64,000 nt of DNA from the NCBI RefSeq assembly GCF_057098645.1, contig NZ_CM169472.1; one strand, written 5' to 3'. Each line of letters opens with the position of its first letter. The first letter of the stretch is position 1. Shown in pieces: positions 24,455 to 48,330 of this stretch. The position numbers were made by a program, and so were the translations under genes. The notes beneath the pieces were generated by a model. The model was given only the letters and a program-made list of their open reading frames with translations. It did no database searches and was not told the origin of the DNA.

Positions 24455-24811
24455 TTACATCTGGGCTGAAAACTCACGTTCTAAGACATCAACAATGAGC
24501 TGGTTTTTTGAAATGGAATGTTGTCTGGCGACGATGGTCAGCCGCGAATCAATGTGATGAGGAACACGAAGCGTCAGGCGTTTTTGCTCTTCTTCTTCAC
24601 GAAAAGGGGCAATACCGTCCTCTTCACAATCCGCCATCCACTCATCCAGCGCGCTTTCGCCCTCACGATATAATGCCTCAATGCTTGTGGCTACAAAGTC
24701 ACAATAACCGTTTACATTGAGGAATTTGCCGCGAAATGCATTGATATCGGCTTCAAATGTCACTGCGGCTGGTTGACCTTTAATTGTGATAATGTTCGAT
24801 GCTTTATTCAT
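24455..24811 (-). CDS. HicB-like antitoxin (N-terminal HicB fold, C-terminal ribbon-helix-helix)
   Basis: 118-aa ORF; C-terminus RLTLRVPHHIDSRLTIVARQHSISKNQLIVDVLEREF resembles an RHH DNA-binding domain; 8-nt overlap with the upstream ORF. Confidence 0.55.
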   Translation of the reverse strand: MNKASNIITIKGQPAAVTFEADINAFRGKFLNVNGYCDFVATSIEALYREGESALDEWMADCEEDGIAPFREEEEQKRLTLRVPHHIDSRLTIVARQHSISKNQLIVDVLEREFSAQM

Positions 24812-25103
24812 AATCTACCCCTACACAGTTAACAAACCACTCCTTAAGACCTGCTACTGCGCCTTTATCCATCACATTCTTTGGATGTGGCTCATGTGTA
24901 CTGAATTTGGTCGTTCCAATCTGAAATTTCCTTCTGGACCCATTGTTATTTTTTATTGTTCCACCCGCCGCTTTAATGAGCGCAACAACATCATCCCATT
25001 TAATTCCAGATTTTGGCGGCTCCGTCATTACATCGTCGAATGTTTTTCTATGGCGGGAGCCTAGCGCGCTGACCTTAATCATACTATCAATCCATGACAT
25101 CAT
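24804..25103 (-). CDS. HicA-like (YcfA family) putative mRNA-interferase toxin
   Basis: 99-aa ORF (true start may be internal; MTEPPKSG... gives 74 aa); GSRRKF...THEPHP...GLKEW resembles HicA; translationally coupled to the downstream ORF. Confidence 0.45.
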   Translation of the reverse strand: MMSWIDSMIKVSALGSRHRKTFDDVMTEPPKSGIKWDDVVALIKAAGGTIKNNNGSRRKFQIGTTKFSTHEPHPKNVMDKGAVAGLKEWFVNCVGVDYE

Positions 25104-25186
25104 TGTATGGTGTCATCGTAGTATGTTTGCAATGTGACGTCAATCAATGGTGTCAGATGCATGCAAAGCATGGAAAAGAATCCCCA

Positions 25187-26959
25187 TCAACTCACTGCCC
25201 CCATAATCTTCAACTCCAGCTCATCCGGCACTTCGTTATACGACAGCACATGCAGCCCCGGCGCAAACAACCTTGCATAGCGAGCCAGCAAAGGGCGCAG
25301 CTGCGGCGGCACCAGCAGTACCGGGTCTTTCCCCGCCGCTTTCATCTGCTCTTTTACCTGCGGCATCGTGCTCTGGAACTGGTTGAGCATATTCGGGTCG
25401 ACCGGCACGCTGTCGAGCATCACTTTGCCGCCCTGTTGCGCCTGATTCACCACGTTGGTCAGCAGATTTTCCAGCTCATTATTCAGCATATACACCGTAA
25501 GCTCCTGCTTGCGAACGAACGGATGGGTAATGCTGCGCCGCAGCGCCAGGCGTACATCGGCTGCCAGCAGAATGTGATCTTTAGTCACCGTGCTACTGGC
25601 GACCAGCACGGTGGCGATGGTGACGATATCGCGCAGGGAAACGCCTTCGGTCAGCAGCGCACGGTACACTTTCAGCAACTGGCTGTAATTCAGCGCCGCG
25701 CTCAAATCCTCCGCCAGGCGCGGTGCCATCGACGACAGGCGGTTATGCAACTGTGTGATGTCATCATAGTTAAACAAATCAGGAATATAGCTGCGCACAA
25801 TCTTGTTTACATGGGTGGCAATCACGCTGGCGCTGTCGATTACCTGATACCCCATATTCAGCGCCTTCGCTTTCTGCGCGGGCTGGATCCAGGTCACCGG
25901 CATCCCGTACGCCGGGTCGTTCCCCAGCACGCCGTCTATCTCGCCGTAGGTTTCGCTGGAGGGCAGGGCCATCAGTTTATCCGCCGGAATATCCGCTTCA
26001 TCGGCCTTAATGCCGTTGATGAAAATAGCGTACTGGCTGGGCTTGAGGCGGAAATTTTCCCGAATGCGGATCTCCGGCAGCAGCACGCCGTTGCCGTCAG
26101 AAATCACCTGCCTCACGCCGCGAATCCGCTGGGTGAGTGGGTTGCCCTGCGCTTTATCGACCAGCGCTACTAGCTTGTAGCCAAGGCTTAAACTGATAGG
26201 CTCGATAAGCGGAATGGTTTCCCAACTGACCTGTTGCTCGCTGGTTTCAGTGATAGTGCGGGTCAGCGTTTCGAGGCTTTTCTCTTCCGCCTCCGCCGCC
26301 TGCGGGCGTTTGCTCATCCGCCAGCCGGTAAAACCCAGTAGGGCGCTGAACAGCAAAAACGGCAGGTGCGGCATCCCCGGCACCACTGCCAGCACGAACA
26401 TGATCCCAGTGGCGGTGTAGAGTACCGTCGGGCTTGCCAGCAGCTGGTGGCGCACGTCATGGGCGATATCGCCGTTATCGCTGACGCGGGTGACGATTAT
26501 CGCCGCCGCGGTGGAGAGCAGGAGGGAAGGGATCTGCGCCACCAGGCCGTCGCCGATGGTCATCAGCACATACTGCTGGAAGGCGGCATCGGCGCTCAGG
26601 TTGTATTTGAAGATCCCGATACAGACGCCGCCGATCAGGTTGATCGCCAGAATCATCATCCCGGCGATGGCGTCCCCGCGCACAAACTTAGATGCCCCGT
26701 CCATTGCGCCGTAGAAATCGGCCTCGCTGGCAACATCTTTACGCCGGGTTTGCGCCTGCGCCTGGTTGATCAACCCGGCGTTAAGATCGGCGTCAATCGC
26801 CATCTGCTTGCCGGGCATCGCGTCCAGGGTAAAGCGGGCAGAAACCTCGGAAATACGCTCGGCCCCTTTGGTGACGACGATAAAGTTGATTGTCAACAGC
26901 GTCAGTAAATCCGAGCGCGAAAGTATTATTGCCGCGCTGCACGGGCAGTCGATTTTCAA
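25187..26959 (-). pseudogene. lfhA: FlhA-like lateral-flagellar (Flag-2) export gene remnant, N-terminally truncated
   Basis: 590-aa ORF matching FlhA from ...VVTKGAERISEVSARFTLDAMPGKQM onward; N-terminal transmembrane region missing. Confidence 0.8.
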
Positions 26960-27656
26960 CGGTGGCGGGTTGTCGCCGTTAAATAAAATCAGCCCGTCTC
27001 ATCCGCCAAAACCTGCCACCGTGGCGGTGCCGGAAGAGACGGAGAAAAAAGCGCGCGACGTCAATGAGAAAACGGCGCTGCTGAAGAAGAAATCCGCCAC
27101 CGAGCTTGGTGAGCTGGCAACCAGTATCAACACCATTGCCCGTGATGCGCATATGGAAGCGAATCTGGAGATGGAGATTGTCCCGCAGGGATTACGCGTG
27201 CTGATTAAAGACGACCAGAATCGCAATATGTTCGAACGCGGCAGCGCGCAGATTATGCCGTTCTTTAAAACGCTGCTGGTGGAGTTAGCGCCAGTGTTCG
27301 ACTCGCTCGATAATAAAATTATTATTACCGGGCATACCGATGCGATGGCCTACAAAAACAATATCTACAACAACTGGAACCTTTCGGGTGACCGCGCGCT
27401 TTCGGCTCGTCGGGTGCTGGAAGAGGCCGGAATGCCGGAAGATAAAGTGATGCAGGTAAGCGCAATGGCGGACCAGATGCTGCTGGATGCCAAAAATCCG
27501 CAAAGCGCGGGCAATCGGCGTATTGAGATTATGGTGCTGACCAAAAGTGCGTCCGATACGCTGTATCAATACTTTGGTCAGCATGGGGATAAAGTGGTGC
27601 AGCCGCTGGTGCAAAAGCTGGATAAGCAGCAGGTGCTTTCGCAGCGAATGCGCTAA
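26895..27656 (+). pseudogene. lafU: MotB/LafU-like lateral-flagellar motor gene remnant (C-terminal OmpA-like domain only)
   Basis: C-terminal part of the 296-aa ORF has MotB/OmpA-C features (IIITGHTDAMAY..., NRRIEIMV); N-terminal part of the ORF overlaps lfhA antisense and is not protein-like; start coordinate approximate. Confidence 0.7.
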
Positions 27657-27726: not shown

Positions 27727-28782
27727 ATGCGTAAAATCATTCATGTGGATATGGACTGCTTTTTCGCAGCGGTGGAGATGCGCGACAATCCCGCCCTGCG
27801 CGATATCCCTATTGCTATTGGCGGTAGCCGCGAACGTCGGGGGGTGATCAGCACCGCCAATTATCCCGCGCGTAAATTTGGCGTACGTAGCGCTATGCCG
27901 ACAGGGATGGCGCTCAAATTATGCCCACATCTCACCTTGCTTCCGGGGCGCTTTGACGCCTACAAAGAAGCCTCAAATCATATCCGTGAAATCTTCTCGC
28001 GCTACACCTCGCGTATTGAACCGTTGTCACTGGATGAGGCTTATCTCGATGTCACCGATAGCGTCCATTGCCACGGTTCTGCGACCCTCATCGCCCAGGA
28101 AATCCGCCAGACGATCTTCAACGAGCTGCAACTGACGGCATCTGCGGGCGTGGCACCAGTAAAGTTTCTCGCCAAAATCGCCTCCGACATGAATAAACCC
28201 AACGGCCAGTTTGTGATTACGCCGGCAGAAGTTCCGGCATTTTTACAAACCTTACCACTGGCAAAAATCCCCGGCGTCGGCAAAGTCTCGGCGGCAAAAC
28301 TGGAAGCGATGGGGCTGCGGACCTGCGGTGATGTACAAAAGTGTGATCTGGTGATACTGCTTAAACGCTTTGGCAAATTTGGCCGCATTTTGTGGGAGCG
28401 TAGTCAGGGGATTGACGAACGCGATGTTAACAGCGAACGGTTGCGAAAATCCGTCGGCGTGGAACGCACGATGGCGGAAGATATTCATCACTGGTCTGAA
28501 TGTGAGGCGATTATCGAGCGGCTGTATCCGGAACTTGAACGCCGTCTGGCAAAGGTGAAACCTGATTTACTGATTGCTCGCCAGGGGGTGAAATTAAAGT
28601 TCGACGATTTTCAGCAAACCACCCAGGAGCACGTCTGGCCGCGGCTGAATAAAGCTGATCTAATCGCCACCGCGCGTAAAACCTGGGATGAACGCCGCGG
28701 CGGGCGCGGTGTGCGACTGGTGGGGCTGCATGTGACGTTGCTGGATCCGCAAATGGAAAGACAACTGGTGCTGGGATTATGA
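27727..28782 (+). CDS. dinB: DNA polymerase IV (Y-family translesion polymerase)
   Basis: 351-aa ORF starting [33 protein letters not shown]. Confidence 0.95.
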
Positions 28783-29231
28783 ATAACATACAAATAAGAA
28801 ACTATCAGCCTGGCGATTTTCAGCAACTATGCGCTATTTTCATTAGAGCGGTTACGATGACCGCCAGTCAGCATTATTCACCACAACAAATTGCCGCCTG
28901 GGCGCAGATTGACGAATCTCGCTGGAAGGAGAAACTCGCGAAATCACAAGTGCGGGTTGCAGTCATTAATGCACAACCGGTTGGTTTTATTTCCCGCATT
29001 GAACATTATATCGATATGTTATTTGTTGACCCTGAATACACCCGCCGTGGGGTTGCCAGCGCTTTGTTAAAACCTTTGATTAAGTCTGAATCCGAACTTA
29101 CGGTGGACGCAAGCATAACCGCAAAACCCTTTTTTGAACGTTATGGTTTTCAGACAGTTAAGCAGCAGCGCGTTGAATGCCGGGGCGCGTGGTTTATTAA
29201 TTTTTATATGCGTTATAAACCGCAACATTAA
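28779..29231 (+). CDS. yafP: GNAT-family N-acetyltransferase
   Basis: 150-aa ORF; start overlaps the dinB stop (ATGA). Confidence 0.85.
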
Positions 29232-29536
29232 ATCCAGCTTGCAATGAAAATAACGCCCGCCTAATATGTGCGCGTTTTCTTATTCCACAAACTGCAAGGA
29301 GGTAAATCATGACAAATCCTTTATCAATGACTCTTTGCAGACCTTTCCAGGATTAATTCTTTTTTTCTTGCCCTGGATTCGTCTGCCATTTCCTGATTTT
29401 TATATTTATATACTCTAAATAATTCGAGTTGCAGGAAGGCGACAAGCGAGTGAATCGCCAGGAGCTTACATAAGTAAGTGACTGGGGTGAACGAACGCAG
29501 TCGCAGTTCATGCAACTTGAAGTATGACGAGTATAA

Positions 29537-30067
29537 ATGGAATGGTACATGGGCAAATATATTCGTCCCTTATCCGATGCGGTATTTACCATCGCATCTG
29601 ATGACCTGTGGATCGAGAGTTTAGCGATCCAACAATTACACACCACGGCAAATTTACCCAACATGCAGCGCGTAGTGGGGATGCCAGATTTACACCCCGG
29701 ACGCGGCTACCCGATTGGCGCAGCGTTCTTCTCCGCAGGCCGTTTTTACCCAGCACTGGTCGGCAATGATATCGGCTGTGGCATGGCGCTATGGCAAACA
29801 GATATTCTCGCTCGCAAATACAACGCCGATAAGTTTGAAAAGCGATTATCAGCTTTGGATGACGTTGCTGAAGAAAGCTGGCTGGAGGAAAACCTGCCGT
29901 CAGCATTTGCACAGCATCCGTGGCGCAGCTCGCTTGGCTCTATCGGTGGCGGCAATCATTTCGCTGAACTGCAACAAGTTGATCAAATCATCAACGCTGA
30001 ACTGTTTGCACTGGCAGGTCTGGATGCGCAGCATCTGCAACTGCTGGTTCATAGCGGCTCGAGGGGG
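29537..30067 (+). pseudogene. RtcB-family RNA ligase (PrfH-coupled), 5' fragment interrupted by an IS element
   Basis: 187-aa ORF with RtcB-like motifs (GMPDLHPGRGYPIGAAF, GGGNHFAELQ, HSGSRG); reading frame broken by the insertion. Confidence 0.8.
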
Positions 30068-30094
30068 GGTGCCCCTATTAAGTTGTCAAGCATG

Positions 30095-31291
30095 TTATGA
30101 CGCCTGCGGGGTATAAAAAGTCCCGTCGCGCATCATGGCGAACAGAACGTCGCAGCGTCGTCTCGCCAGGGCGATAAGCGCCTGATTGTGTCGTTTTCCC
30201 TGACTCATTTTGCGGGTGTAGTAAGCCCTGGAGAGCGGATCCCTGAGCGCGGCGAAGGCCGACAGGAACAACGCCCGTTTGAGAGCTTTATTACCCCGTC
30301 GCGAGGGATGCTCACCGCGTATTGACGAGCCGGATCGCCGAGTTACCGGCGCAAGGCCAGCATAAGCAGCGAGATGTGCGGCAGAGGCGAAGGCGCGGCA
30401 GGCGACCTCGGTGAGGAGTCTGGCTGCGGTCCTGACACCGACTCCGGGCATACTGGTCAGGACCGGGTAAAGAGGGTGAGCAAGAACTCGCTGTTCTACC
30501 TCAAGCACCACCTCGTCTCTTTGCTTACGCAGCGTGATGAGCTGGAGTGCCAGACGTGGCAGTACTACGGCAGCGGCATTCGTGCCGGGAACGACGACGG
30601 TTTGTTCGGCCAGTGCCTGAGCTATGTCTGCTGCAAGGCGTTTACCCAGACGAGGCGCAAGTTTGCAGAGCTGGGCTGCCAGCTTCTTCTCACCCAGCGA
30701 AGCGAGTTTTTCTGGTGAGGGATATCGCTGGAGAAGATCGAGTACCGCCGGGTGATCAAGTCTCGGACCGAGAACGCGCTCCAGTGCCGGATGTATCTGG
30801 GTCAGAAGGCCGCGGATACGGTTGCTGGCCTGCGTTGTCTGTGCGGCAAGATCATCATCGAAGCCGCAGAGCATGGAGAGTTCGGCGATTTGCTCGTCAG
30901 CCAGTTTCAGCGTGCGTAGCGCGTGAGGCAGGGTACGGGCAGCTTCGGCAATGATGGCAGCGTCACGAGCATCAGTTTTAGCTTCACCGGCGTGTAAGTC
31001 GGCTATGCGGCGCATGGCCAGTCCAGGGAGGTATCCGACAAGGACTCCTTCTGAGCGGGCAACGGCGACAGGTAACGCACCGATGGTAGCTGGCTGATCA
31101 ACAACCAGCAGTATCTGACCATGTTGTTTCAGGTCAGATATTAGCGACCTGAGTTTGTTTTCGTCGTTGGGTAATGCTTTATCGAACAGGCGTTTACCTG
31201 AACGATTAATGGCTACAGCGTGATGCGTATCTTTACCGACATCAACGCCGATAAAGACCTGGACGGATTCGTAATCGCTGGATTCGGTCAT
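30095..31291 (-). CDS. IS110-family DEDD transposase/recombinase
   Basis: N-terminal IGVDVGKDTHHAV (RuvC-like DEDD) and C-terminal MPGVGVRTAARLL...AYAGLAPVTRRSGSS...GNKALKRAL motifs. Confidence 0.88.
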   Translation of the reverse strand: MTESSDYESVQVFIGVDVGKDTHHAVAINRSGKRLFDKALPNDENKLRSLISDLKQHGQILLVVDQPATIGALPVAVARSEGVLVGYLPGLAMRRIADLHAGEAKTDARDAAIIAEAARTLPHALRTLKLADEQIAELSMLCGFDDDLAAQTTQASNRIRGLLTQIHPALERVLGPRLDHPAVLDLLQRYPSPEKLASLGEKKLAAQLCKLAPRLGKRLAADIAQALAEQTVVVPGTNAAAVVLPRLALQLITLRKQRDEVVLEVEQRVLAHPLYPVLTSMPGVGVRTAARLLTEVACRAFASAAHLAAYAGLAPVTRRSGSSIRGEHPSRRGNKALKRALFLSAFAALRDPLSRAYYTRKMSQGKRHNQALIALARRRCDVLFAMMRDGTFYTPQAS

Positions 31292-31517
31292 TCTGTCTCC
31301 CTTGTATATGGGTTAACCAGATAACCACGGGGAGCAGGTACCGGCATCCACGTTACAGACGGTCCCGGCAAAAGTGCCTGACCTGACCCCTATTAGCGGT
31401 TACCAGCGCCCCACCAGACCCGGTGACATCACCCCCCGGATCATGGACGACTGGGGGCAGTAATCATGCCGGGTCTGGCTGGCTAACACCCCATTATAAG
31501 GGGTACGAATAAAGTAA
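31292..31517 (-). ncRNA. candidate IS110-type bridge (guide) RNA in the element's 5' non-coding arm
   Basis: ORF-free, about 225 nt; perfect 10-bp inverted repeat ccagacccgg/ccgggtctgg (31414-31423 and 31469-31478); 8- and 9-nt exact matches to the target flank and the element terminus. Confidence 0.4.
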
Positions 31518-32137
31518 CGGGGCAGTCTATTTTACAGCGGCATATTGCCTCGTTTTCGCATCATGGTTTGCCTGAAGGCAGTGACGATGCGCTACGGTAC
31601 ATTGCGGAACATGACGATGCGCTGGCATTTGCGCGTATTAATAGCCAGATGATCGCTTTGCGCATAATGCAACAGGTTAAGGCCACGGGAAGTCCGGTTC
31701 TGGATGTGGCGCATAACTTTGTTAGCGCGTGTCAAATCGGCGATCAACAGGGCTGGTTGCATCGTAAAGGTGCCACGCCGGATGACAACGGTCTGGTGAT
31801 TATTCCCGGTTCACGCGGTGATTACTCCTGGCTTGTACAGCCTGTTGCGAACGAAAAAACGCTCCACTCGCTGGCGCATGGGGCAGGGCGTAAATGGGGG
31901 CGCACCGAGTGTAAAGGGCGTCTGGCAGCGAAATACACGGCGACGCAACTCTCGCGTACTGAACTTGGCAGTCGGGTAATTTGTCGCGATAAACAACTCA
32001 TCTTTGAAGAAGCGCCACAAGCCTATAAATCGGCTGAAAGCGTGGTGCAATGTCTGGTGCAGGCCGGATTAATTATTCCTGTCGCGCGGCTGCGTCCGGT
32101 GCTAACGCTCAAAAACAGTGGAGGGAAAAAAGGATGA
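31518..32137 (+). pseudogene. RtcB-family RNA ligase (PrfH-coupled), 3' fragment
   Basis: Frame resumes ...GQSILQRHIASFSHHGLPEGSDDALRY...; ends 3 bp after the prfH start. Confidence 0.8.
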
Positions 32138-32748
32138 TCTTGCTACAACTCTCCTCTGCTCAGGGGCCGGAAGAATGTTGTCTCGCAGTGAAAAAGGCGC
32201 TGGACAGGCTGATTAAAGAAGCTGCTCGACAAGACGTCGTGGTAACAGTGCTGGAAACAGAAACAGGTCGTTACTCTGACACGCTGCGTTCGGCGCTGAT
32301 TTCTCTGGATGGCGACAACGCATGGGCGTTAAGCGAAAGTTGGTGCGGCACTATTCAGTGGATTTGTCCGAGTCCGTATCGGCCTCATCATGGGCGCAAA
32401 AACTGGTTTCTGGGCATTGGGCGTTTTACCGCTGATGAGCAGGAGCAATCCGATGCGATCCGGTATGAGACGCTGCGTTCGTCGGGGCCGGGTGGTCAAC
32501 ATGTCAATAAAACCGACTCGGCGGTACGCGCCACGCATTTGGCATCCGGTATTAGCGTGAAGGTTCAGTCAGAACGCAGTCAGCATGCTAACAAGCGGCT
32601 GGCACGATTGCTGATTGCCTGGAAGCTGGAGCAACAGCAACAGGAAAATAGCGCAGTGCGGAAATCGCAGCGGCGAATGTTCCATCACCAGATTGAACGT
32701 GGCAACCCGCGACGAACGTTCACAGGGATGGCTTTTATCGAAGGATAA
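32134..32748 (+). CDS. prfH: peptide chain release factor H homolog (GGQ motif), apparently full length
   Basis: 204-aa product [15 protein letters not shown]... with [16 protein letters not shown]; gaggg RBS; overlaps rtcB 3' end. Confidence 0.85.
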
Positions 32749-47364: not shown

Positions 47365-48321
47365 TCAGGACGACGGGGGCAGGCATGAATCCTCCTCCTG
47401 ATGGAGACGTACAGAGGCGACTTCTGCCAGCACGGAGAGTGCCAGAGTATGCGCATCCCGGGCTTTGGGGAATATCCCGACGGGTGCCCGGATTTGCGCT
47501 GTCTCCTCCCTGGACCATCCCAGCTCGTGGAGCTTTTGCAGACGTAAAGTGTGGGTTCGATAGCTGCCCAATGCGCCGAGATAAAAGGGTTTTGCCTCTC
47601 GCGCGGCCTGCAACACTGGCAGCTCCCGGTTGAGATCATGGCACAGCAAAATGACCGCCGTATCGGTATCGATCTGAGCGCTGGCTGAGGCCGGAAAAAG
47701 ATCGAAGATATGGCTGTCATAGCCTGTGGCTGCTGCAAGACTCGCGGTTGCCTGCGCCTCAAGAGAACGTCCGTAAATCATCAGCCTGACGCATGGCCTG
47801 AACCCCACCTCAAAGCCATTGAGATTCCAGCCCGTCCGGGTTTGCGTGGGCAGGCACACCAGCGATTGTGCTTGCGGATCGTAGCGCAGACCCGCCGGTT
47901 TTCTCTGTTCCAGGCGGTTCAGCACGGCGAGCAGAGGCTGTGCCGAGCGTAGTTTATGGAGCGTCAGCGTGATCCCACCGCCGCAGGGCAGAACGATGTC
48001 AAACCACGGCGAACCTTCGCCATAGCGAATTTCGCGATCGCGGCCTGAGCCCATCATCTCCAGCGCTTCAAAAGCGGCAGCGGCCTCCACGCAGCCGCCA
48101 GAGACAAAACCGCAGTAACGACCATCTTCGCGAACCACCATCTGCGCCCCGAGCGGGCGCGCCGCGCCGCCGTGTATCTCCATCAGCGTCACCAGCACCG
48201 CTCCTTTACCGGACATTAGCGCCTCTACGGCGAAGCGCAGAATGGTCCGGTGGTCATCGGTGAGAAACGCCTGCTCTGGCTTATGCCAGTGTTCGTCTTT
48301 ATCAAAAAGCGGGTATGACAT
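47365..48321 (-). CDS. paoD: XdhC-like molybdenum cofactor insertion chaperone PaoD
   Basis: 318-aa ORF with XdhC/CoxI signature; directly downstream of paoC. Confidence 0.85.
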   Translation of the reverse strand: MSYPLFDKDEHWHKPEQAFLTDDHRTILRFAVEALMSGKGAVLVTLMEIHGGAARPLGAQMVVREDGRYCGFVSGGCVEAAAAFEALEMMGSGRDREIRYGEGSPWFDIVLPCGGGITLTLHKLRSAQPLLAVLNRLEQRKPAGLRYDPQAQSLVCLPTQTRTGWNLNGFEVGFRPCVRLMIYGRSLEAQATASLAAATGYDSHIFDLFPASASAQIDTDTAVILLCHDLNRELPVLQAAREAKPFYLGALGSYRTHTLRLQKLHELGWSREETAQIRAPVGIFPKARDAHTLALSVLAEVASVRLHQEEDSCLPPSS

Positions 48322-48330
48322 TGTTCCTCC

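What the first reader, a model, noticed from the sequence alone, without database searches (positions are those of the whole stretch)
29309..29356. 15-codon ORF with a near-perfect Shine-Dalgarno site upstream of rtcB
aaggagg lies 7 nt upstream of an ATG that opens MTNPLSMTLCRPFQD followed by a stop. This could be a small protein or a leader peptide for the rtcB-prfH operon. Ordinary ORF calling misses it because of its length.
Basis: seen in the sequence. Interest (0 to 1): 0.3.

Follow-up and report, generated by a model that had tools for sequence, protein, structure and literature searches.

The report
Leader ORF of ribosome-repair operon
The 15-codon ORF is real and is the unannotated E. 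coli counterpart of PA5471.1, a Pseudomonas leader peptide that senses ribosome trouble, placed in front of the rtcB2-prfH ribosome-repair operon, so it probably controls when that operon is switched on.

Summary
AAGGAGG (29296-29302), a 6-nt spacer, ATG 29309, 15 codons (MTNPLSMTLCRPFQD) and TAA (29354-29356) are all there.

A perfect Shine-Dalgarno site plus ATG is not by itself beyond chance in 64 kb. Comparison with other genomes settles it. All 22 proteobacterial rtcB2-prfH leaders analysed in detail have an SD-preceded ORF of 13-19 codons at the same place. These include loci with unrelated neighbouring genes.

The P. aeruginosa copy, MIQFSTLCRLRLA, is PA5471.1. This is the characterised leader peptide of armZ (an RtcB homologue)-prfH, which senses ribosome stalling.

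What is conserved is RNA and ORF geometry, not the peptide. The motif UUUGCAG inside the ORF can pair either with CUGCAAAGG, which overlaps the ORF's own SD, or with a downstream GNCUGC. The second pairing shows covariation. The stop codon always lies 11-16 nt after that motif.

Best reading: a cis-acting leader ORF that couples rtcB2-prfH expression to ribosome performance. The output step, RBS occlusion or transcription termination, is inferred.

None of 5,399 E. coli records annotates it, Rfam has no family for it, and the E. coli RtcB2-PrfH papers do not mention it. In this strain an ERIC repeat sits in the leader and ISEc20 splits rtcB2.

It is a new member of a known kind, of moderate interest.

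The parts
29239..29267 (+). Promoter-like element: -35 TTGCAA (29239-29244), 17-nt spacer, -10 TAATAT (29262-29267). The expected transcription start is about 29274.
   Evidence: TTGCAx-N17-TAxxAT recurs 22-33 nt upstream of the leader motif in most lineages examined, including Pseudomonas, Kangiella, Pragia and Delftia. The generic promoter scan did not call it at its threshold. This is computational evidence only.
29292..29301 (+). Segment a (CTGCAAGGAG). It overlaps the 5' part of the leader ORF's Shine-Dalgarno site and can pair with segment b.
   Evidence: ViennaRNA minimum-free-energy folds show a 10-bp a:b stem. CUGCAAAGG and CCUUUGCAG are conserved on both sides across Gammaproteobacteria, Neisseria and Delftia.
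29296..29302 (+). Shine-Dalgarno site AAGGAGG of the leader ORF, with a 6-nt spacer to the ATG.
   Evidence: AAGG(A/G)G(G/A) at 5-9 nt from the AUG is conserved in all leaders examined.
29309..29356 (+). Leader ORF: 15 codons plus TAA, MTNPLSMTLCRPFQD.
   Evidence: Orthologous ORFs of 13-19 codons occur upstream of rtcB2 in 22 leaders. The sequence is identical in K-12 at NC_000913.3 253239-253286.
29331..29342 (+). Segment b (CTCTTTGCAGAC, codons 8-12). It pairs either with a (CTCTTTGCAG) or with b' (GCAGAC).
   Evidence: The GCAG is shared by two mutually exclusive helices. UUUGCAG is invariant, but its reading frame differs in Colwellia, Delftia and Neisseria.
29347..29351 (+). Segment c (CCAGG, codons 13-15). 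It pairs with c'.
   Evidence: RNAalifold consensus. Pair counts are 96% paired, with AU, UG and CG types at one position.
29372..29376 (+). Segment c' (CCTGG).
29381..29386 (+). Segment b' (GTCTGC). It pairs with GCAGAC of b.
   Evidence: Covariation: position 5 is AU 9, GC 8, GU 2, UG 1, CG 1, and position 6 is CG 16, UG 4, UA 1, with all 21 leaders paired and 0 of 20,000 partner permutations reaching the observed score. The count of structure pairs gives 98.5% paired and a covariation score of 0.258 against 0.163, with 0 of 500 shuffles as high. The BL21 variant GTTTGC keeps a G.U pair.
29386..29393 (+). Segment d (CCATTTCC). It is complementary to the rtcB2 ribosome-binding region d'.
   Evidence: Duplex energy averages -7.7 kcal/mol over 20 leaders, against -3.7 for shuffled d'. 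There is no lineage-specific covariation (permutation p=0.44).
29403..29531 (.). ERIC/IRU repeat inserted into the leader between d and d'. It is a secondary insertion, not part of the ancestral element.
   Evidence: It is absent in strain 201609 and partial in two other strains. It matches Rfam V_AS5 below threshold at 29408-29531. It folds on itself in the predicted RNA, which brings d and d' together.
29539..29551 (+). Segment d' (GGAATGG, 29539-29545), the weak SD-like region of rtcB2, and the rtcB2 start codon (29549-29551).
   Evidence: GGA(A/T)TGG-N3-ATGGGCAA is conserved in nearly all leaders. The PGAP start is given.
29549..32137 (+). rtcB2, the regulated gene. It is split here: nt 1-520 are at 29549-30068 and nt 522-1140 at 31519-32137, with ISEc20 (IS110 family) at about 30069-31518. 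The transposase ORF is 30095-31291 on the minus strand.
   Evidence: RefSeq annotation of the 100%-identical strain RM9872. Alignment to an intact rtcB2.
32134..32748 (+). prfH (peptide chain release factor H). Its start overlaps the rtcB2 stop.

Best explanation
The 15-codon ORF is a cis-acting leader ORF of the rtcB2-prfH ribosome-repair operon. It is the enterobacterial orthologue of P. aeruginosa PA5471.1. A conserved sigma-70-like promoter makes a leader RNA whose first feature is a strongly initiated short ORF. Inside the ORF the motif CUUUGCAG(A/G)C (segment b, followed by c) can pair in two mutually exclusive ways. It can pair backwards with CUGCAAAGG (a), which overlaps the ORF's own SD. 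It can pair forwards with CCUGG...GNCUGC (c'-b'). The stop codon is placed so that a terminating ribosome just covers b and c.

Inferred logic, of the trp/ermC type with four segments:
- When ribosomes run through the ORF normally, or when a:b forms afterwards, c'-b'-d is left free. It then pairs with the rtcB2 ribosome-binding region and start (d'-AUGGGCAA), and the operon is held off.
- When ribosomes are held at the SD or the first codons, segment a is occupied and b-c is free. Causes could be damaged ribosomes such as colicin-E3-cleaved ones, or drug-inhibited ones. Segment b-c then captures c'-b', the rtcB2 start region is released, and RtcB2 and PrfH are made.

What is shown here: the existence and conservation of the ORF, its homology to PA5471.1, the a/b/b' alternative pairings, and covariation in b:b' and c:c'. 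What is inferred: that the ORF is translated in E. coli, the direction of the switch, and whether the output is RBS occlusion or transcription termination.
For: (1) Synteny and conservation. An SD-preceded ORF of 13-16 codons lies upstream of rtcB2 in Escherichia, Salmonella, Citrobacter (2 species), Klebsiella (2 species), Kosakonia, Enterobacter, Cronobacter, Pragia, three Pseudomonas, Kangiella, Orbaceae, Colwellia, Delftia and metagenomic relatives. Neisseria has a 19-codon one. Pragia, Pseudomonas and others have unrelated flanking genes.

(2) Identity with PA5471.1. The P. aeruginosa ORF at this position is MIQFSTLCRLRLA, 13 codons with Q3 and F4, as described for PA5471.1. Covariance model R1 was built without E. 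coli K-12, the window or P. aeruginosa. It scores the window at 108 bits (E=1e-17), K-12 at 107 bits and the P. aeruginosa leader at 51 bits (E=4e-7). The chance-pattern loci among the sources searched gave nothing better than E=0.24.

(3) ORF geometry. Frame 0 is open through b and closed before b' in 22 of 22 leaders, against 0 of 22 and 7 of 22 for the other frames. The stop codon starts 11-16 nt after the GCAG. The indels between the 15- and 13-codon versions are in frame.

(4) RNA, not peptide. UUUGCAG is read as LCR in most taxa but as FFAG in Colwellia and PFAV in Delftia, and as FFAA in Neisseria by direct reading.

(5) Structure. RNAalifold predicts b:b' plus c:c'. Covariation is supported. 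The a:b and b:b' states are near-isoenergetic. Opening the rtcB2 initiation region costs 0.5-5 kcal/mol more in the a:b state in 17 of 17 leaders. The expected number of base pairs between that region and c'-b'-d falls from 4-14 to 0-6.

(6) Literature. PA5471.1 senses ribosome stalling and responds to all classes of translation inhibitors. E. coli ykfJ (the truncated rtcB2) is reported to be inducible by 4-azaleucine (a secondary citation). RtcB2-PrfH repairs colicin-E3-damaged ribosomes.
Against: There is no direct evidence of translation in E. coli. The one ribosome-profiling supplement I could search has no entry at K-12 253239-253286, although K-12 carries a truncated operon.

The sequence within E. 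coli is invariant, so it gives no codon-level test.

The a:b helix is supported by conservation and by independence from reading frame, not by clear compensatory changes.

The d:d' pairing shows no lineage-specific covariation.

Simple ribosome-footprint constraints did not change the predicted accessibility of the rtcB2 start region. The effect appears only when helices are forced, and part of it is trivial, because sequestering c'-b' removes possible partners.

No intrinsic terminator was detected.

According to my recollection of the Morita 2009 abstract (the paper is not held), a PA5471.1 start-codon mutant is constitutively ON. A strict four-segment model explains this only if a 30S subunit still occupies the SD.

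In this strain rtcB2 is disrupted by ISEc20, so the element cannot currently be doing its job here.
Confidence: 0.78

Rival explanations
1. The leader ORF works as in the model published for P. aeruginosa: transcription attenuation. Complete translation of the leader lets a terminator form, either intrinsic or Rho-dependent on the pyrimidine-rich, G-poor RNA downstream. Stalling prevents this. RBS occlusion would then be secondary or absent.
For: Reviews describe PA5471.1 control as transcription attenuation, with a terminator formed by segments 3 and 4. The RNA between the ORF and rtcB2 is U/C-rich and G-poor, with a U-run about 10 nt after b' in many lineages. My accessibility calculations give only a modest effect on the rtcB2 start region.
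Against: No intrinsic-terminator-like site is found at window 29100-29650. The same scan also finds none in the P. aeruginosa leader, so the scan may be too strict. The enterobacterial leader has only about 65 nt between the sORF stop and rtcB2, and the U-run does not directly follow a stem. The review notes that the attenuation mechanism still needs confirmation.
Confidence: 0.3
2. The region is a conserved non-coding regulatory RNA or promoter-operator, and the ORF is an untranslated by-product of conserved RNA motifs.
For: The most conserved nucleotides (CUGCAAAGG, CUUUGCAG, CCAGG) are RNA-pairing segments. The peptide sequence is not conserved. A perfect SD plus ATG is not beyond chance in 64 kb.
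Against: The AGG(A/G)G part of the SD, the 5-9-nt spacing and the AUG lie outside the helices, yet they are conserved in all leaders. The variable codons 2-8 change freely without frame-breaking indels. Frame 0 is open through b in 22 of 22 leaders, against 0 of 22 and 7 of 22 for the other frames. The orthologous P. aeruginosa ORF is described as expressed, and stop or substitution mutations in it change armZ expression. By my recollection of the Morita 2009 abstract, its translation was shown with a reporter fusion.
Confidence: 0.08
3. The ORF encodes a free-standing, trans-acting small protein of 15 residues.
For: It has a strong SD and is conserved in length in Enterobacterales, with a C-terminal (L/I)CRxxQ(D/E) motif.
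Against: The conserved residues coincide with the RNA pairing segments. The motif is read in another frame in three lineages. The N-terminal half is unconstrained. Pseudomonas versions end differently (…CRSRLA). The ORF always travels with rtcB2-prfH and is never seen alone among the loci examined.
Confidence: 0.04

Closest known systems
PA5471.1, the 13-codon leader peptide of the P. aeruginosa armZ (PA5471, RtcB-like)-PA5470 (prfH) operon (Morita et al. 2009, J Bacteriol 191:4966; reviewed in PMC12057347 and PMC13041342)
   Same: It has the same position, upstream and on the same strand as an RtcB-family gene followed by prfH. It has the same architecture: a promoter, GCAAAGGAGG, an AUG, a 13-15-codon ORF containing CUUUGCAG, a downstream GNCUGCC, and GGAUUGG-N-AUGGGCAA. 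It shares the T-L-C-R core. One covariance model detects both. Both operons encode the RtcB2/PrfH pair.
   Different: The E. coli ORF has 15 codons rather than 13. The E. coli leader is short, about 113 nt from the AUG to rtcB2, against about 254 nt in P. aeruginosa. The P. aeruginosa leader carries a GC-rich insert of about 120 nt where terminators have been proposed. E. coli has no MexZ/MexXY target, so the output serves ribosome repair only. The E. coli copy is unannotated and untested.
Translation-attenuation leaders of inducible resistance genes (ermCL/ermC, the cat and cmlA leaders)
   Same: A short SD-preceded leader ORF is present. A ribosome stalled in the leader re-pairs four RNA segments so that the downstream gene's ribosome-binding site is exposed. 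The inducing signal is impaired translation.
   Different: There is no sequence relationship. The erm and cat leaders depend on drug- and peptide-specific arrest motifs. Here the peptide is not conserved, and in Pseudomonas the sensor responds to all classes of inhibitor.
Classical amino-acid attenuators (trpL, hisL, leuL, pheL)
   Same: A leader ORF overlaps segment 1/2 of alternative hairpins, and the position of the ribosome decides the fold.
   Different: There are no runs of regulatory codons and no canonical terminator hairpin followed by a U-tract. The signal is general ribosome performance, not the charging of one tRNA.
RtcR/sigma-54 control of the paralogous rtcBA RNA-repair operon of E. 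coli
   Same: It controls an RtcB RNA ligase in response to damage to the translation apparatus.
   Different: The mechanism is entirely different: an enhancer-binding protein and sigma-54, with no leader ORF. The covariance model finds only one copy of the leader in the window.

Membership tests
PA5471.1-type leader of rtcB2(armZ)-prfH operons | A short SD-preceded ORF on the same strand immediately upstream of an RtcB-family gene that is followed by prfH | tested here: met
   The sORF is at 29309-29356. rtcB2 starts at 29549 and prfH is at 32134-32748. The arrangement is the same in the 22 analysed leaders from other taxa.
PA5471.1-type leader of rtcB2(armZ)-prfH operons | Sequence and structure homology of the leader region to the P. 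aeruginosa PA5471.1 region | tested here: met
   Covariance model R1 scores the window at 108 bits (E=1e-17) and P. aeruginosa L101 at 51 bits (E=4e-7 and 7e-8). The shared motifs are GCAAAGGAGG, CUUUGCAG, GNCUGCC and GGAUUGG-N-AUGGGCAA.
PA5471.1-type leader of rtcB2(armZ)-prfH operons | Its own constitutive promoter upstream of the leader ORF | tested here: inconclusive
   TTGCAx-N17-TAxxAT is positionally conserved (window 29239-29267). However, it matches only 8 of 12 consensus positions, the generic scan did not call it, and no transcription-start data are available.
PA5471.1-type leader of rtcB2(armZ)-prfH operons | The leader ORF is translated | not testable with these tools
   Only indirect evidence exists: conserved SD, AUG and frame. 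The ribosome-profiling supplement I could search has no entry, and the others are not held.
PA5471.1-type leader of rtcB2(armZ)-prfH operons | Downstream gene induced by ribosome-targeting agents; mutations that stop leader translation derepress it | not testable with these tools
   The only hint comes from the literature: E. coli ykfJ is reported inducible by 4-azaleucine (Morita 2006, as cited in PMC3516279).
PA5471.1-type leader of rtcB2(armZ)-prfH operons | A terminator between the leader ORF and the gene (transcription attenuation) | tested here: inconclusive
   No terminator-like site is found in window 29100-29650. The same scan finds none in the P. aeruginosa leader either.
Classical amino-acid biosynthetic attenuators (trpL type) | A run of codons for the regulating amino acid in the leader ORF, and an intrinsic terminator | tested here: not met
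   MTNPLSMTLCRPFQD has no codon run, and no terminator-like site is found.
ermCL/cat-type translation-attenuation leaders | Alternative pairings in which the leader-ORF segment competes for a segment that otherwise occludes the downstream RBS | tested here: inconclusive
   Mutually exclusive a:b and b:b' helices are supported. Occlusion of the rtcB2 start region by c'-b'-d is predicted in 17 of 17 leaders, but the effect is modest and d:d' does not covary.
Curated RNA families (Rfam 15) | A match to a described leader or riboswitch model | tested here: not met
   No family matches the leader in the window. The only hit is V_AS5, below threshold, on the ERIC repeat. No family matches the P. aeruginosa leader either.

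The most novel reading that the evidence does not exclude
The element is the ancestral ribosome-damage sensor of the RtcB2-PrfH ribosome-repair module, widespread in Proteobacteria. It would be a four-segment switch that acts on rtcB2 translation initiation rather than on a terminator. It would turn repair on when ribosomes are held at the SD or the first codons of the leader, for example after colicin E3 cleavage of 16S rRNA. The well-known MexXY induction in P. aeruginosa would then be a late co-option of this older circuit.
Probability: 0.35. Interest if true: 0.65.

Novelty: new member of a known kind. Interest (0 to 1): 0.45.

Why it matters
RtcB2-PrfH is the only known system that rescues and re-ligates ribosomes cut by colicin E3. 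The E. coli papers on it that I could read express it from foreign promoters and say nothing about its natural control.

A conserved translation-sensing leader supplies a concrete, testable answer to how a cell knows its ribosomes are damaged. It also joins two literatures that do not cite each other: ArmZ/PA5471.1 and MexXY antibiotic resistance in Pseudomonas, and RtcB2-PrfH ribosome repair in E. coli.

On the practical side, the leader is missing from all the E. coli annotations examined. It could also serve as a broad reporter for translation inhibitors in enterobacteria, as the armZ leader already does in P. aeruginosa.

Tried and rejected
1. The genome-contig scan with a PrfH alignment was largely wasted. 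Only L007-L016 were PrfH loci. I recovered enterobacterial and Pseudomonas loci through the look-up of encoding contigs instead.

2. The metagenome pattern scan returned 120 stretches. Only 8 had an RtcB hallmark downstream, one of them a duplicate, and one more (L136) was recognised later by the covariance model. The rest are chance matches, and those included in the search served as negative controls for the model.

3. Ribosome-profiling evidence. The Stringer 2021 supplement has no entry for K-12 253239-253286 or the peptide. The supplements or papers of Weaver 2019, Meydan 2019 and the EcoSal small-proteome review are not held.

4. The primary PA5471.1 paper (Morita 2009) is not held. I took the mechanism from reviews and from my recollection of its abstract, and marked it as such.

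5. Intrinsic terminators: none were found.

6. Rfam: there is no family.

7. Ribosome-footprint constraints in ViennaRNA gave no clear change in accessibility of the rtcB2 start region. Only the forced-helix ensembles show a consistent direction.

8. Covariation in d:d' is not supported (p=0.44).

9. My first idea, that the GC-rich stretch after yafP is a terminator, was dropped. That stretch is the conserved promoter and discriminator region.

10. The weak antisense STnc350 hit (E=0.29) was dismissed as chance.

11. Within-E. coli variation was examined for a codon-level test, but the ORF is invariant.

Full report
**Observation.** The window is E. coli. The stretch queried is 100% identical to O145 strain RM9872. 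The local gene order is dinB (27727-28782), yafP (28779-29231), a 317-nt intergenic region, rtcB2 (start 29549), prfH (32134-32748) and pepD on the other strand. In the intergenic region AAGGAGG sits at 29296-29302. It is followed by a 6-nt spacer, ATG at 29309, 15 codons (MTNPLSMTLCRPFQD) and TAA at 29354-29356. The motif AAGGAGG-N4-9-ATG occurs twice in the 64 kb window against 0.55 expected, and 11% of shuffles give two or more. The motif is therefore suggestive, not significant. The second copy is the start of a 318-aa ORF. Nothing is annotated at the sORF in the 5,399 E. coli records that carry this block, including the curated K-12 record. There the identical ORF lies at 253239-253286.

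**The lead.** A PGAP note on an rtcB pseudogene in another strain mentioned drug-inducible mexXY expression. This points to P. aeruginosa ArmZ (PA5471). ArmZ is an RtcB-like protein encoded upstream of PA5470 (prfH). Its expression is controlled by a 13-codon leader peptide, PA5471.1, that senses ribosome stalling. The question then became whether the E. coli ORF is the same device.

**Comparative evidence.** I collected rtcB2-prfH loci from:
- Citrobacter (2 species), Klebsiella (2 species), Salmonella, Kosakonia, Enterobacter, Cronobacter and Pragia;
- three Pseudomonas, including P. aeruginosa;
- Kangiella, Orbaceae, Colwellia, Delftia and Neisseria;
- several metagenomic relatives.

In Pragia, Pseudomonas and the non-enteric taxa the flanking genes are unrelated to dinB and yafP.

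Every leader analysed has an ORF of 13-19 codons preceded by AAGG(A/G)G(G/A) at 5-9 nt, upstream of rtcB2. Two Betaproteobacteria, Massilia and Paucibacter, carry a different 19-codon ORF; they are listed under things seen in passing. The Hyphomicrobium and Methylobacterium loci showed no comparable leader and were not analysed further. Examples of the peptides:

| Taxon | Leader peptide |
|---|---|
| E. coli | MTNPLSMTLCRPFQD |
| Salmonella | MTIHSLNALCRHFQD |
| Klebsiella | MNTDFQNILCRPSQE |
| Cronobacter | MTYSTLITLCRLTQE |
| Pragia | MQQLEISTLCRRIQG |
| Pseudomonas sp. | MQALITLCRSRLA |
| Kangiella | MKYTLHLCRSYPV |
| P. aeruginosa | MIQFSTLCRLRLA |

The P. aeruginosa peptide has 13 codons with Q3 and F4, exactly as published for PA5471.1.

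A covariance model was built from 13 short leaders and did not include E. coli K-12, this window or P. aeruginosa. It scores window 29272-29420 at 108 bits (E=1e-17), K-12 at 107 bits and the P. aeruginosa leader at 51 bits (E=4e-7). Metagenomic loci that match the a...b pattern only by chance were searched in the same call and gave nothing better than E=0.24. I conclude that the E. coli ORF is the orthologue of PA5471.1.

**What is conserved.** The peptide is not. Codons 2-8 vary freely. The apparent C-terminal motif (L/I)CR is the nucleotide motif CUUUGCAG. In Colwellia and Delftia the same nucleotides are read in another frame, as FFAG and PFAV, and in Neisseria as FFAA by direct reading. 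The geometry of the ORF is conserved:
- The AUG is 22-28 nt before the GCAG (39 nt in the 19-codon Neisseria leader).
- The stop codon begins 11-16 nt after the GCAG.
- Length differences between lineages are in frame.
- The AUG frame is open through the motif and closed before the downstream partner in 22 of 22 leaders, against 0 of 22 and 7 of 22 for the other two frames.

A sigma-70-like TTGCAx-N17-TAxxAT also recurs 22-33 nt upstream of the leader motif in most lineages. In the window it is at 29239-29267.

**RNA structure.** Segment b (window 29331-42, CTCTTTGCAGAC) can pair in two ways. It can pair with segment a (29292-29301, CTGCAAGGAG), which overlaps the ORF's own SD. It can also pair with b' (29381-86, GTCTGC), with c (29347-51) pairing c' (29372-76). 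The two pairings share GCAG and so exclude each other.

The b:b' and c:c' helices are the RNAalifold consensus and they covary:
- Position 5 of b:b' is AU 9, GC 8, GU 2, UG 1, CG 1, and position 6 is CG 16, UG 4, UA 1. All 21 leaders are paired.
- None of 20,000 partner permutations reached the observed score.
- On the model-derived alignment, 98.5% of cells are paired. The covariation score is 0.258 against 0.163, with 0 of 500 shuffles as high. Slid controls give 16-50% paired.
- The BL21 variant GTTTGC keeps a G.U pair.

These tests do not correct for phylogeny, and the alignment was fitted to the model.

The a:b helix is supported by conservation on both sides of nucleotides that neither the SD nor b:b' needs, and by its independence from reading frame. 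It is not supported by clear compensatory changes.

Directly 3' of b', segment d (CCATTTCC, 29386-93) is complementary to GGAATGG (29539-45), the weak SD-like sequence of rtcB2. This complementarity holds in 20 leaders, at -7.7 kcal/mol against -3.7 for shuffled sequence. It does not covary (p=0.44).

**Mechanism (inferred).** The a:b and b:b' states are near-isoenergetic. Opening the rtcB2 initiation region (-18 to +9) costs 0.5-5 kcal/mol more in the a:b state in 17 of 17 leaders. The expected pairing between that region and c'-b'-d falls from 4-14 bp to 0-6 bp when b:b' is formed.

This fits a four-segment switch. Segment 1 is a, segment 2 is b-c, segment 3 is c'-b'-d, and segment 4 is the rtcB2 start region. 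The states 1:2 plus 3:4 are OFF and the state 2:3 is ON. A ribosome held at the SD or the first codons occupies segment 1 and leaves segment 2 free, which gives ON. A ribosome that runs to the stop codon covers segment 2, which gives OFF.

The support is modest. Simple footprint constraints showed no effect, and part of the forced-helix effect is trivial. The published P. aeruginosa model is transcription attenuation. I found no intrinsic terminator in either leader, so the output step remains open.

The biological sense is clear either way. RtcB2-PrfH rescues and re-ligates colicin-E3-cut ribosomes. In Pseudomonas the leader responds to every class of translation inhibitor. E. coli ykfJ is reported to be inducible by 4-azaleucine (a secondary citation).

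**This particular locus.** An ERIC repeat (about 29403-29531) is inserted between d and d'. It is absent or partial in other strains and is predicted to fold on itself. ISEc20 splits rtcB2 at nt 520. Here the leader therefore fronts a dead gene. K-12 and O157 keep the leader unchanged in front of a deleted operon.

**Novelty.** PA5471.1 has been known since 2009, and the ykfJ-PA5471 homology is noted in the Pseudomonas literature. In what I could search, no annotation, no Rfam family and none of the E. coli or general RtcB2-PrfH papers mentions an enterobacterial leader. A 2015 riboswitch screen ranked a neighbouring 100-nt window 98th of 100 without comment. I could not read Morita 2009 itself, so I cannot exclude that it mentions an E. 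coli counterpart. Verdict: a real feature, a new member of a known kind, of moderate interest.

Noticed in passing
window 29403-29531: An ERIC/IRU repeat is inserted inside the rtcB2 leader. Among E. coli strains it is full-length, partial (about 55 nt) or absent. The Rfam model V_AS5 (a Vibrio antisense RNA) matches it below threshold, which suggests that model captures an ERIC-like repeat.
   Followed up: partly
window 30069-31518: ISEc20 (IS110 family; transposase ORF 30095-31291, minus strand) is inserted after nt 520 of rtcB2 and inactivates the operon in this strain.
   Followed up: yes
window 28779-29231 vs L001 (K-12): In this strain dinB is followed directly by yafP, with overlapping ATGA. 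The yafN-yafO toxin-antitoxin pair found in K-12 and some other strains is absent.
   Followed up: no
L224 (BL21 derivative), L223 (O157:H7), L225: The only polymorphisms in the 120-nt leader core are the length of the T-run just after the sORF stop (T6, T7 or T8) and, in BL21, GTCTGC to GTTTGC in b', which keeps a G.U pair.
   Followed up: yes
L226 (strain I3) 788-1567: An IS1 insertion has removed yafP's 3' end and the 5' half of the leader, up to the TGCAG of segment b. In this strain rtcB2 and prfH are also pseudogenes.
   Followed up: partly
L007 (Massilia) about 2136-2195; L010 (Paucibacter) about 2167-2226: In these Betaproteobacteria rtcB2 is preceded by a different SD-led 19-codon ORF (MQKLNINALFLGLAGYILH and MQKNTTSLWAGSTVAGLFI) without the UUUGCAG motif. 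This may be a second class of leader. The covariance model gives only a weak hit in Massilia (E=0.004).
   Followed up: partly
window 48319-48332 (minus strand): The only other perfect AAGGAGG-N-ATG in the window is the start of a 318-aa ORF (47365-48321, minus strand).
   Followed up: yes
window 24455-27656 (L002 annotation): There is a hicAB toxin-antitoxin pair. There are also remnants of the lateral flagellar (Flag-2) cluster: a truncated flhA-like pseudogene and lafU, upstream of dinB.
   Followed up: no
rtcB2 start region in all loci (e.g. window 29537-29556): ATGGA(A/T)TGG-N3-ATGGGCAA is almost invariant from E. coli to Pseudomonas. rtcB2 has only a weak SD-like GGA(A/U)UGG, and in many taxa an in-frame ATG lies 4 codons upstream. 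The reason for this extreme conservation beyond the MGN N-terminus is unexplained.
   Followed up: partly
L004 annotation: PGAP attaches a Pseudomonas-derived note ('compromised ability for drug-inducible mexXY expression') to an E. coli rtcB2 pseudogene.
   Followed up: no
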